Source of the DNA: Escherichia coli
GTDB taxonomy: Bacteria > Pseudomonadota > Gammaproteobacteria > Enterobacterales > Enterobacteriaceae
Assembly: GCF_024502345.1 (NCBI RefSeq)
Contig: NZ_JALDNN010000001.1
Length of the DNA: 64,000 bases
Direction: 5' to 3' (one strand)
This document shows, one piece after another, positions 21,201 through 24,200 of the stretch; the first letter of the stretch is position 1, and each line of letters opens with the position of its first letter. The position numbers are program-made.

Positions 21201-24200
21201 TTTGACCTTAATCATGTTTTTTGATAGATATTTTACGACTGAACATATCCGTCGTTTCCTCTGACTCGTGTCAGTCGGTCTCTGGTTGTATCCACGGACC
21301 GCACTCTTGACATAAGAGTGCGGTCCGTGGAAAACGGAGTTGAAAAAATGGTGTCTGAAAGAAGGTACCATCATTGTGATGACAAATACTTTGGCGTGGA
21401 TAATGTAATTAATTGCTGAAATTGACCGTATATGCGGTAAGACTCATATCAGTATCAGGTCCGGTTAATTGCTGATACTAATATAAACTTTTTACAAAAG
21501 GATGAATGCAGAAGGTTACTCTAATGGCCAGAGTGATGACAATGATGGTCAGACGTTGACCTGCAGAAACTGCATTTTAATTGGTCTATAAAGTCTGCAA
21601 GAGGAATCAGGGTCAGATCAGTGAGTCTTATCGCGGCCCGAAGCTATGACTGAAAGAAGGCTGGATACAGAATTGCAACAATTTGGCAATGTCAGAACAC
21701 AGAAGCTTTGCAAGCAGGTGAAAGGTTATGTCTAGCAAAAGGAGTATATCAGAATATATCTACTGATGTACAAAACACAACAATAGCTTCATGATATATA
21801 AATACGTGATGACGAGTGGTACTCCGCATGGTTATTTAACTTCTCAGCACCACTAATGATCCTGAGCAACTTCGTATTTGGGCCATTACCATGGAGTAGA
21901 AAGCTGTGTCTGAGAATGCAGAATTTGAGAAAAGAATTCGCTTTCTTGGAGAGCTTCTGAAAATGGCACGCTAACAACGTTTTGTTAAAAAATGTGAATC
22001 ACTTGCCGGGGTTGCATTTTCTATTCGAGGAGAATGTTGACGTAGATATTACAGAAATCTCAGCGCATCAGGATAAACTGCTACCTTAGGTCAACCACCA
22101 AAAGAAAATACAATACGTCCAGTTTGTATGCCTTTAATAACACATCTTCTAAATGTTGAAGAATTATCCCGCCTGCTGAAGAACGTTGCTCTGAGTGTGA
22201 TAAACCTTTTTATTCTTGATGATGTCAGCGAGAAGATGGAATATATCCCCGACTGGGTCGTGGTTACCCGGTTAAACATCTGGTGGCGCTAATAAATCTG
22301 GCAAGTCACATTCTGTTGAATGCTGTGACAGTGCCTTACCGAGAGAGCGAAATTGTGGTGTTCTAGTGCATAGTCGCCACCATTCCGGATAATTCTATTA
22401 CGTTGTTTTACAAGTTCTTTTACAGCGCAGATCTGTCGCTGACGTTGAATCAATAGCCTGGATTTCAGAACACAATGCCCGTTTGCTGGTTGTTCCGGCA
22501 GTAGCATTAATTCATTATCTGAATGAAATGTGTCAATCCACAGAAACCGCTGTCAATGACGCATTTTGTCGGACGTTAACACGAGAAAGTCTGGCTATTC
22601 CGTAATGCCATCTTATTTCGTAATGGATTGAGAATGCTGGATTTTTAATTATATTACGCGCAGTATTAATCGCGTAAATGTTTTGCGGTCAGCAACGGTG
22701 GGGGATCCATTGTTCTGTTCAATGAATACCATCATACATTTGAATCAGGAGTCGGTATGATGATTTTGGTGACGGGGGGCGCACGGAGCGGGAAGAGTCG
22801 CCACGCAGAGGCGCTTATTGGGGACTCTTCACAGGTTCTGTATATCGCTACCTCGCAAATCCTTGATGATGAGATGGCTGCACGGATAGAACATCATCGG
22901 CAAGGCCGCCCGGAGCACTGGCGCACAGTGGAGCGCTGGCAACATCTTGATGAATTAATTCATGCAGACATTAACCCGAATGAGGTTGTGTTGCTTGAAT
23001 GCGTTACCACAATGGTGACTAATCTGTTGTTTGATTATGGCGGCGATAAAGACCCTGATGAATGGGATTATCAGGCGATGGAACAGGCGATTAATGCTGA
23101 GATTCAGTCGTTGATTGCTGCCTGCCAACGTTGCCCCGCAAAGGTTGTATTAGTGACTAACGAAGTGGGAATGGGGATTGTGCCGGAGAGTCGTCTGGCA
23201 CGACATTTTCGTGATATTGCCGGGCGGGTAAATCAGCAGTTGGCCGCTGCGGCAAATGAAGTATGGCTGGTGGTTTCGGGTATTGGAGTAAAAATCAAAT
23301 GAGTAAATTATTTTGGGCGATGCTCTCATTTATTACGCGTCTGCCTGTACCGCGTCGCTGGTCCCAGGGACTGGATTTCGAGCATTATTCTCGCGGTATT
23401 ATTACTTTTCCTTTGATTGGATTATTGCTTGGCGCGATTAGCGGGCTGGTCTTCATGGTGCTGCAGGCATGGTGTGGCGCACCACTGGCGGCACTGTTTA
23501 GCGTACTTGTGCTGGTGCTGATGACCGGGGGATTCCATCTGGACGGCCTCGCTGATACCTGTGATGGCGTATTTTCTGCACGTAGCCGCGATCGCATGTT
23601 GGAAATCATGCGTGATAGCCGTTTAGGCACCCACGGCGGTCTGGCATTGATTTTTGTGGTACTGGCAAAGATTCTGGTGTTAAGCGAGTTGGCTCTGCGT
23701 GGCGAATCGATCCTTGCATCGCTGGCGGCAGCATGTGCGGTCAGCCGCGGGACTGACGCATTATTGATGTATCGTCATCGTTATGCGCGGGCAGAAGGGC
23801 TTGGCAATGTGTTCATTGGCAAAATTGATGGGCGACAAACCTGCGTCACACTCGGCTTAGCCGCTATTTTTGCTGCCGTATTATTGCCGGGTATGCATGG
23901 TGTGGCTGCTATGGTGGTGACGATGGTGGCGATTTTCATCCTCGGTCAGCTTCTCAAACGTACGCTGGGCGGGCAAACGGGCGATACGCTGGGAGCAGCC
24001 ATAGAGCTTGGTGAACTGGTCTTCCTGCTGGCACTGCTATAAAGAGACGTGAGATGCAAATACTTGCCGATTTACTGAATACGATCCCAGCCATCGATTC
24101 TACCGCTATGTCGCGTGCACAACGGCATATTGACGGGTTACTCAAACCTGTTGGTAGCCTGGGAAAGCTGGAGGTGCTTGCCATACAACTGGCAGGAATG

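What the first reader, a model, noticed from the sequence alone, without database searches (positions are those of the whole stretch)
22393..22605. 70-codon stop-free frame with no start codon at its 5' end, upstream of cobU
The + frame reads FYYVVLQVLLQRRSVADVESIAWISEHNARLLVVPAVALIHYLNEMCQSTETAVNDAFCRTLTRESLAIP* and ends 154 bp before cobU. It has no start codon at its 5' end, which follows an in-frame TAA. It could be the 3' remnant of a gene lost from upstream of cobUST, or a chance open frame in AT-rich DNA. I could not assign it.
Basis: inference. Interest (0 to 1): 0.2.

Follow-up and report, generated by a model that had tools for sequence, protein, structure and literature searches.

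The report
Dead stub of a truncated cbiG gene
The open frame joins out-of-frame junk from a dead insertion sequence to the last 47 codons of a small CbiG-derived gene that most E. coli lost along with the propanediol (pdu) operon; it is an ordinary gene fragment that genome annotation already marks as a pseudogene.

Summary
Being stop-free is not unusual here: the window has 263 frames of 70 codons or more. The frame has two origins. Codons 1-23 (22393-22461) are an out-of-frame reading of a decayed IS4-family transposase fragment (K-12 yeeH/yoeG). Codons 24-70 (22462-22605) are the 3' end of a 136-156-codon ORF that is intact in 645 of 5,426 complete E. coli genomes, and in E. marmotae, E. 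albertii and E. fergusonii. There it lies in the order pdu operon, pduF, pocR, cobalamin riboswitch, ORF, then cobUST in E. coli and E. marmotae. That ORF is a truncated, divergent copy of the N-terminal third of cbiG, not of cbiP. In the window about 17.5 kb (most of pduV through two thirds of the ORF) has been replaced by about 3 kb of mobile-element debris. Two stubs remain: pduV' (19312-19494) and this one. The cobUST promoter (22628-22655) lies downstream of the stub. NCBI's annotation pipeline PGAP already calls 22462-22605 an incomplete 'cobalamin biosynthesis protein' pseudogene. This is ordinary and already known. One side observation: the intact parent ORF appears to be under weak purifying selection.

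The parts
22393..22461 (+). First 23 codons of the reported frame. They are not gene-derived in this frame: they read through the 3' part of a decayed IS4-family transposase fragment, shifted by one base from the transposase frame.
   Evidence: PGAP places the IS4-family transposase pseudogene at window 22265-22453, a different frame from the one starting at 22393. Homology to pdu-positive strains is absent left of about 22461.
22462..22605 (+). 3' stub (47 codons plus TAA) of the Escherichia 136-156-codon truncated-cbiG ORF. It lacks the start codon, about 89 N-terminal codons, the riboswitch and the promoter.
   Evidence: PGAP: 'cobalamin biosynthesis protein; incomplete; missing N-terminus' at exactly these coordinates in near-identical genomes. 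DNA alignment to the intact ORFs L003 and L012 shows that the window shares a 9-nt deletion and the TAA stop with the 136-codon allele.
22459..22461 (.). Deletion joint between the middle of the transposase and the middle of the ORF. The boundary is known to about +/- 2 nt.
   Evidence: Megablast matches of pdu-positive genomes start at query position 212, which is window 22461. Alignments A1 and A4 agree. The IS4 match ends at profile position 191 of 332, so this is not an IS terminus.
21828..22453 (+). Decayed IS4-family transposase pseudogene. It corresponds to K-12 yoeG plus yeeH, which IS5 splits in K-12.
   Evidence: K-12 annotation mapped onto the window. PGAP fragment 22265-22453. NCBIfam NF033592, E 3.8e-5, profile positions 129-191 of 332.
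22628..22655 (+). Sigma-70 promoter of cobUST (TTGAGA-16-TATATT). It lies downstream of the stub's stop codon.
   Evidence: Consensus scan, 10 of 12 matches. The same hexamers and spacing are listed as the constitutive RpoD promoter of cobUST in PMC3946193. The sequence is conserved in pdu-positive strains.
22757..23302 (+). cobU, the first gene of the intact cobUST operon.
   Evidence: ORF list; RefSeq annotation.
19312..19494 (-). pduV' stub (60 codons). It is the matching scar at the other end of the lost pdu segment, next to tmaR/yeeX.
   Evidence: Translation. PGAP 'EutP/PduV family' in L014, mapped to the window at 99.7% identity. Full-length pduV sits next to tmaR in pdu-positive PD23.
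19495..22460 (.). About 3 kb of mobile-element debris that replaces about 17.5 kb of pdu, pduF, pocR, riboswitch and the 5' part of the ORF. It holds transposase fragments, a TonB-receptor plug fragment (yoeA) and the IS4 fragment.
   Evidence: Annotations of near-identical genomes, window mapping, and comparison with PD23.

Best explanation
The frame is a non-functional composite. Its last 47 codons are the dead 3' end of a short ORF, itself a truncated and divergent copy of the first third of cbiG. In the ancestral Escherichia arrangement this ORF sat between a cobalamin riboswitch and cobUST, next to pocR, pduF and the pdu operon. In the lineage of this window, mobile DNA entered the region and a deletion joined the middle of an IS4-family transposase gene to about codon 90 of the ORF. 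That removed most of pduV, the rest of the pdu operon, pduF, pocR, the riboswitch and the ORF's start. The 23 codons in front of the stub are transposase debris that happens to be stop-free in this frame. cobUST is now driven by its own sigma-70 promoter in the 151-nt spacer downstream of the stub, without the riboswitch. Shown here: the homology, the junction position, the two flanking stubs, and the promoter position. Inferred: the order of events and the lack of function.
For: RefSeq/PGAP annotates window 22462-22605 as an incomplete 'cobalamin biosynthesis protein' pseudogene and 22265-22453 as an IS4 transposase fragment. In 645 of 5,426 complete E. coli genomes the riboswitch and the ORF's 5' two thirds are present. 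PD23 shows tmaR, pduV to pduA, pduF, pocR, riboswitch, a 145-codon ORF and cobUST. The same layout occurs in E. marmotae, E. albertii and E. fergusonii, with the riboswitch always 218 nt upstream of the ORF. The parent ORF matches CbiG: NCBIfam NF004463 at E 1.4e-20 (residues 1-119 against profile 1-126 of 351), tblastn of a full CbiG at E 4e-18, and collinear in alignment A3. Window homology starts at 22461. The window shares a 9-nt deletion and the stop codon with the 136-codon allele. The pduV' stub is at 19312-19494. The stub is dispensable. ISEc8 splits it in O157:H7, and other genomes have deletions reaching window 22479, 22569 or 22617 with cobU intact. Changes specific to the window number 4-5 nonsynonymous to 1 synonymous. 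The promoter TTGAGA-16-TATATT at 22628-22655 matches the published cobUST promoter. Rfam finds nothing in 21000-23500.
Against: On their own the 47 residues give no significant match to any CbiG model or protein. The assignment is therefore transitive, through the intact Escherichia ORF. That ORF has no Pfam CbiG_N hit and scores far below the NCBIfam cut-off (74 against 546 bits), so 'cbiG-derived' rests on one family model plus pairwise and profile alignments. The junction is known only to +/- 2 nt, and the order of insertion and deletion events is inferred. No expression data were examined. A 40-codon TTG ORF (22483-22605) exists and its translation cannot be formally excluded.
Confidence: 0.9

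Rival explanations
1. The whole 70-codon frame is a chance open frame in non-coding DNA, with no gene ancestry.
For: Frames this long are common: 263 in the window, and 9 locally against 4.8 expected. There is no start codon at the 5' end. Pfam and NCBIfam give nothing meaningful for the 70 residues; the only Pfam entry, Chs7 at E 0.021, is below its cut-off.
Against: The last 144 nt align in frame, at about 92% DNA identity or better, with the end of an intact ORF found at the same locus in at least four Escherichia species. So this holds only for codons 1-23.
Confidence: 0.03
2. It is the 3' end of cbiP, the gene that directly precedes cobU in Salmonella-type cob operons, left behind when cbiA-cbiP were deleted.
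For: Position only: cbiP is the last cbi gene in the Salmonella-order operon L008, and from established knowledge it abuts cobU in Salmonella. The final 20-26 residues of the parent ORF lie outside the CbiG model match, so their origin is open.
Against: CbiP from a Salmonella-order operon gives no significant tblastn hit to the window or to the intact E. coli and E. fergusonii loci. CbiG matches those two intact loci at E 4e-18 and 2e-20. Stub residues corresponding to positions 90-119 of the parent ORF fall inside the CbiG-aligned part.
Confidence: 0.04
3. The stub retains a function, either as a small protein from the TTG at 22483 or as a cis-acting leader or promoter element for cobUST.
For: The stub is present in nearly all E. 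coli: 5,403 of 5,426 genomes match the region. A 40-codon TTG ORF exists. From my own knowledge, Lawrence and Roth (1995) reported several promoters for E. coli cobUST; that paper could not be retrieved here.
Against: The mapped or predicted promoter lies downstream of the stub. No Shine-Dalgarno sequence precedes the TTG (direct reading). Natural ISEc8 disruption and deletions through the stub coexist with intact cobUST. There is no Rfam hit. Window-specific substitutions are mostly nonsynonymous. In the model of the parent protein the stub spans one strand, two helices and a low-confidence tail, and could not fold alone.
Confidence: 0.03

Closest known systems
RefSeq/PGAP pseudogene 'cobalamin biosynthesis protein; incomplete; missing N-terminus' upstream of cobU in E. 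coli (e.g. EAS44_RS25550 in ATCC 11775)
   Same: Identical feature, with the same coordinates when mapped onto the window (22462-22605), the same frame and the same stop.
   Different: The curated K-12 record NC_000913.3 does not annotate the stub. It annotates only the neighbouring yeeH and yoeG, and the CP4-44 prophage feature starts inside the stub.
Intact 136-156-aa 'cobalamin biosynthesis protein' ORF of pdu-positive Escherichia (e.g. WP_001524956.1 in E. coli PD23; WP_248900826.1 in E. fergusonii)
   Same: This is the parent gene. The stub is its last 47 codons, in the same frame, and it shares an in-frame 9-nt deletion and the TAA stop with the 136-aa allele.
   Different: The parent has a start codon, about 89 more N-terminal codons and a cobalamin riboswitch 218 nt upstream. 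It evolves at dN/dS of about 0.32-0.41. The stub has none of these upstream parts.
CbiG, cobalt-precorrin-5A hydrolase (about 350 aa; Pfam CbiG_N, CbiG_mid and CbiG_C domains)
   Same: The parent ORF is collinear with CbiG residues 1 to about 126-140, including the SLLSGHxGGA region that the stub still carries as RLLVVP-A.
   Different: Only the first third is present. The conserved core GAxGIxVR...DKxxDPAVVVIDE is replaced and shortened by in-frame deletions. There are no mid or C domains and no neighbouring cbi genes, so it cannot be the enzyme.
K-12 pseudogenes yeeH (b4639) and yoeG (b4640) at the edge of cryptic prophage CP4-44
   Same: They are the IS4-family transposase debris that supplies the first 23 codons of the frame. 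yeeH maps to window 22367-22453 and yoeG to 21828-22360.
   Different: In K-12 they are separated by IS5 (insH6), inserted at window 22362/22363. The window has no IS5.

Membership tests
CbiG (cobalt-precorrin-5A hydrolase) | Significant sequence match to a CbiG family model | tested here: inconclusive
   Parent ORF: NCBIfam NF004463 at E 1.4e-20 but 74 bits against a cut-off of 546, covering the N-terminal part only. There is no Pfam CbiG_N hit. The window's 70 residues give no hit in either library. Ancestry is supported; membership as an enzyme is not.
CbiG (cobalt-precorrin-5A hydrolase) | Full three-domain architecture (CbiG_N, CbiG_mid, CbiG_C; about 350 aa) | tested here: not met
   A true CbiG (P0056, 358 aa) has all three Pfam domains. 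The parent ORF stops after about 136-156 aa, and the window keeps only 47 aa.
CbiG (cobalt-precorrin-5A hydrolase) | Located within a cbi corrin-synthesis operon (cbiF upstream, cbiH downstream) | tested here: not met
   No other Cbi protein from a complete operon matches the window or the intact E. coli and E. fergusonii loci. The neighbours are pocR and the riboswitch, and cobU.
Escherichia truncated-cbiG ORF ('cobalamin biosynthesis protein', 136-156 aa) | Orthologous DNA at the same locus, directly upstream of cobU, in the same frame | tested here: met
   Homology runs from 22461 through cobU, at 91-92% identity to the PD23 class and nearly identical to the 136-aa allele L012.
Escherichia truncated-cbiG ORF ('cobalamin biosynthesis protein', 136-156 aa) | Complete ORF with a start codon, preceded by a cobalamin riboswitch | tested here: not met
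   The window lacks the 5' 89 or so codons. Rfam finds no riboswitch in 21000-23500. All five intact loci have one. It is therefore a pseudogene fragment of this family.
CbiP/CobQ (cobyric acid synthase) | Sequence similarity to the CbiP C-terminus | tested here: not met
   tblastn of a 518-aa CbiP gives only chance-level hits, none in 22462-22756.
IS4-family transposase (source of codons 1-23) | Match to an IS4 transposase model in the correct frame | tested here: met
NF033592 at E 3.8e-5, profile positions 129-191 of 332. It is far below the cut-off for an intact gene, as expected for a fragment containing a stop codon. PGAP gives the same call.

The most novel reading that the evidence does not exclude
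The stub itself is dead. Its intact parent may not be a decaying relic but a retained small protein: a neofunctionalised N-terminal third of CbiG, controlled by a cobalamin riboswitch. It would have been kept by selection in pdu-positive Escherichia, which cannot make corrin rings, and lost together with pdu. The ORF is open in all five lineages sampled, and all its indels are in frame. Its dN/dS is 0.32-0.41, against 0.71-0.97 in neutral simulations (P <= 0.015 per pair), and staying stop-free by chance has a probability of at most 9% (E. marmotae distance) and 1.3% (E. fergusonii distance). It might act in corrinoid handling linked to propanediol use. Alternatively it may be kept open only so that translation carries riboswitch control through to cobUST.
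Probability: 0.35. Interest if true: 0.35.

Novelty: already known. Interest (0 to 1): 0.1.

Why it matters
For this window it matters little. It explains an unassigned open frame as an annotated pseudogene fragment and shows that it should not be called a gene. It does give a clean local picture of how most E. coli lost the pdu-pocR-riboswitch segment: two flanking gene stubs, pduV' and cbiG', with mobile-element debris between them. It also shows that cobUST in these strains is cut off from the cobalamin riboswitch that precedes it in pdu-positive Escherichia, and runs from its own promoter. The only point with wider interest is the side observation that the intact parent ORF looks selectively maintained.

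Tried and rejected
- **Rfam scan of 21000-23500 at a permissive threshold:** only a chance miRNA hit, with no riboswitch or sRNA.
- **Pfam on the 70 residues and on the parent ORF:** nothing except a sub-threshold Chs7 hit, taken as chance.
- **Direct tblastn of 14 Cbi proteins (CbiD to CbiP) from a complete operon (L008) against the window:** no significant hit. The cbiP-remnant idea was rejected, and so was the expectation that Salmonella-type proteins would identify the stub.
- **Remnants of cbiA or cbiF in the 218 nt between riboswitch and ORF start in the intact loci:** none detectable.
- **AlphaFold model of the parent ORF:** only moderate confidence (pLDDT 64), with a disordered tail from residue 120.
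- **Foldseek against the PDB:** no significant match, only generic alpha/beta hits such as PurE at E above 0.009. This was uninformative.
- **Profile search of PDB sequences:** found the CbiG homologue 3EEQ, but the profile included true CbiGs, so it does not discriminate.
- **Literature:** Lawrence and Roth 1995 could not be retrieved. Full-text searches found no paper describing this stub or the truncated cbiG.
- **A 201-codon minus-strand frame flagged by my script:** this was a coordinate-conversion slip. It is the known TonB-receptor (yoeA) pseudogene at 20552-21157.

Full report
**1. Observation**

Window 22393-22605 (+) translates exactly as quoted and ends in TAA. An in-frame TAA sits at 22390-22392. 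The first start codon in the frame is a TTG at 22483. cobU begins at 22757, the ATG used in RefSeq, so the gap is 151 nt; it is 154 nt to the second ATG.

A stop-free run of 70 codons is not remarkable. The window has 263 such frames. The 3-kb gene-poor stretch 19700-22750 has 9, against 4.8 +/- 2.1 in shuffles. GC content here is 41-44%.

**2. What the DNA is**

The window is the E. coli chromosome around his, sbcB, dacD, sbmC, yeeA, tmaR, then cobUST, ldtA, asnV and nac. In near-identical RefSeq genomes PGAP annotates two adjacent pseudogene fragments:
- an IS4-family transposase piece at window 22265-22453;
- a 'cobalamin biosynthesis protein; incomplete; missing N-terminus' at window 22462-22605.

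The frame is therefore a composite. Codons 24-70 are a gene stub. Codons 1-23 read the IS4 debris in a frame shifted from the transposase frame.

The IS4 assignment is independently supported. NCBIfam NF033592 matches at E 3.8e-5, over profile positions 129-191 of 332. The fragment therefore ends in the middle of the transposase and not at an IS terminus. In K-12 the same debris is annotated as pseudogenes yeeH (window 22367-22453) and yoeG (21828-22360), split by IS5 inserted at 22362/22363. The stub itself is not annotated in NC_000913.3.

**3. The parent gene**

Matches to window 22250-22760 occur in 5,403 of 5,426 complete E. coli genomes. About 836 records match only from window 22461 onward, at 91-93% identity. 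In one of them, strain PD23, the order is:
- tmaR;
- pduV to pduA, on the opposite strand;
- pduF and pocR;
- a cobalamin riboswitch;
- a 145-codon ORF;
- cobU, cobS, cobT and ldtA.

The riboswitch plus the 5' two thirds of that ORF are present at 80% coverage or more in 645 of 5,426 genomes. The same layout occurs in a 136-codon E. coli allele, in E. marmotae, in E. albertii (where only cobS was called between the ORF and ldtA) and in E. fergusonii (where cobUST is absent). The riboswitch aptamer always ends 218 nt before the ORF start.

Word-indexed and exhaustive protein searches find full-length relatives only in Escherichia and Shigella. Beyond these come the N-termini of true CbiG proteins. 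Evidence that the ORF derives from cbiG:
- NCBIfam NF004463 (cobalt-precorrin-5A hydrolase) matches residues 1-119 to profile positions 1-126 of 351, at E 1.4e-20.
- A 358-aa CbiG from a complete operon (cbiD, E, T, F, G, H, J, K, L, M, N, Q, O, P) matches at E 4e-18, and no other Cbi protein matches, including CbiP and CbiF.
- In the alignment the ORF is collinear with CbiG, but the conserved core is replaced and shortened by in-frame deletions.

The parent is thus a truncated, divergent copy of the first third of cbiG, not of cbiP. The truncation is shared by all four species examined (E. coli, E. marmotae, E. albertii, E. fergusonii), so it probably predates their divergence.

**4. The stub in the window**

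DNA homology to the intact ORFs begins at 22461 (+/- 2 nt). The stub shares an in-frame 9-nt deletion and the TAA stop with the 136-codon allele, so it descends from that allele lineage. Parsimony assigns 4-5 nonsynonymous changes and 1 synonymous change to the window's branch. One of them falls in the region aligned to the CbiG SGHxGGA motif. This fits neutrality, though the numbers are small.

At the other end of the lost segment the window keeps a 60-codon pduV stub at 19312-19494 (-), next to tmaR. About 17.5 kb was lost (PD23 coordinates roughly 2005158-2022694). It is replaced by about 3 kb of mobile-element debris (19495-22460).

**5. Function**

Nothing points to a function for the stub.
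- **Promoter.** The only sigma-70-like site is TTGAGA-16-TATATT at 22628-22655, downstream of the stub's stop. Shimada et al. list the same motif as the constitutive cobUST promoter (PMC3946193).
- **Natural disruptions.** ISEc8 splits the stub at about 22488 in O157:H7. Other genomes carry deletions reaching 22479, 22569 (a pduV'-cobU fusion in strain 38) or 22617, all with cobU intact. Other deletion endpoints inside the ORF also occur.
- **RNA.** Rfam finds nothing.
- **Translation signal.** No Shine-Dalgarno sequence precedes the TTG at 22483.

The inferred history has three steps.
- An old truncation of the cbi operon left riboswitch, cbiG' and cobUST.
- Mobile DNA then entered, and a deletion joined the middle of the IS4 transposase to the middle of the ORF.
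- The stub has since decayed, and further IS hits have accumulated in some lineages.

The homologies, junction and stubs are shown. The order of events is inferred.

**6. Side observation on the intact parent**

Its pairwise dN/dS is 0.32-0.41. The values for pocR, pduF, ldtA and cobU are mostly 0.02-0.15, with a maximum of 0.20. Neutral simulations give a median of 0.71-0.97 (P <= 0.015). A neutrally evolving ORF would stay stop-free in at most 9% of runs at the E. marmotae distance and at most 1.3% at the E. fergusonii distance. This suggests weak purifying selection, or at least selection to keep the ORF translated. The pairs are not independent, and the method (Nei-Gojobori) is crude.

An AlphaFold model has only moderate confidence (pLDDT 64) and a low-confidence tail from residue 120. 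It found no significant structural match.

**7. Comparison with what is known, and verdict**

The feature is already annotated by PGAP across E. coli RefSeq genomes. One deposited record names such a fragment 'putative Cobalamin biosynthesis protein CbiG'. It is not a CbiG enzyme, because the architecture and operon context fail. It is a pseudogene fragment of the Escherichia truncated-cbiG ORF. The result is ordinary and of low interest.

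Noticed in passing
window 19312-19494 (-): A 60-codon stub of pduV (EutP/PduV family) lies directly after tmaR/yeeX. It is the left-hand scar of the lost pdu segment. It has an ATG, and PGAP sometimes annotates it as an intact 60-aa protein.
   Followed up: partly
L003 5735-6172; L012, L011 and L010 4001-4411/4435; L007 8001-8471: The intact parent ORF (truncated cbiG, 136-156 codons) has dN/dS of 0.32-0.41, against about 0.02-0.20 for its neighbours and about 0.7-1.0 in neutral simulations. It is open in all five lineages, with only in-frame indels. It may be a selectively maintained small gene.
   Followed up: partly
L007 (E. fergusonii) 8471-8698; L010 (E. albertii) 4435-5877: In E. 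fergusonii the ORF is followed directly by ldtA, with no cobUST. In E. albertii only cobS is called between the ORF and ldtA, and no cobU or cobT was called. The salvage genes decay independently in these species while the riboswitch and ORF persist.
   Followed up: no
L007 against L003, L010, L011 and L012 (pocR, pduF, ldtA): Synonymous divergence between E. fergusonii and the other Escherichia at this locus is near or at saturation (dS about 1.4-3.4). That seems high for species of one genus. It could reflect an old allele lineage or exchange with an outside donor.
   Followed up: no
L006 (K-12 NC_000913.3) 4021 onward; window about 22501: The annotated left boundary of cryptic prophage CP4-44 in K-12 (2066020) falls inside the cbiG' stub, which is chromosomal ancestral DNA. 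The curated K-12 record has no feature for the stub.
   Followed up: no
E. coli genomes H95-H97, H53, H62-H64: There are several different deletion endpoints within or next to the ORF: direct pduV'-ORF fusions, and deletions reaching window 22479, 22569 and 22617. The pdu segment appears to have been lost more than once in E. coli.
   Followed up: partly
window 22128-22292 (+): A 54-codon ATG ORF is annotated in some genomes as hypothetical protein WP_001128468.1. It lies inside the decayed IS4/yoeG pseudogene region and overlaps the PGAP IS4 fragment, so it is probably not a real gene.
   Followed up: no
window 22289-22507 (-): A 72-codon ATG ORF on the opposite strand spans the IS4/cbiG' junction. 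It is a chimera of two unrelated remnants, is not annotated anywhere I looked, and is taken as chance.
   Followed up: no
L003 4192-4275 (-), with the same position in L007, L010, L011 and L012: Rfam finds the sRNA STnc230 between pduF and pocR in all pdu-positive loci. It is part of the segment missing from the window.
   Followed up: no
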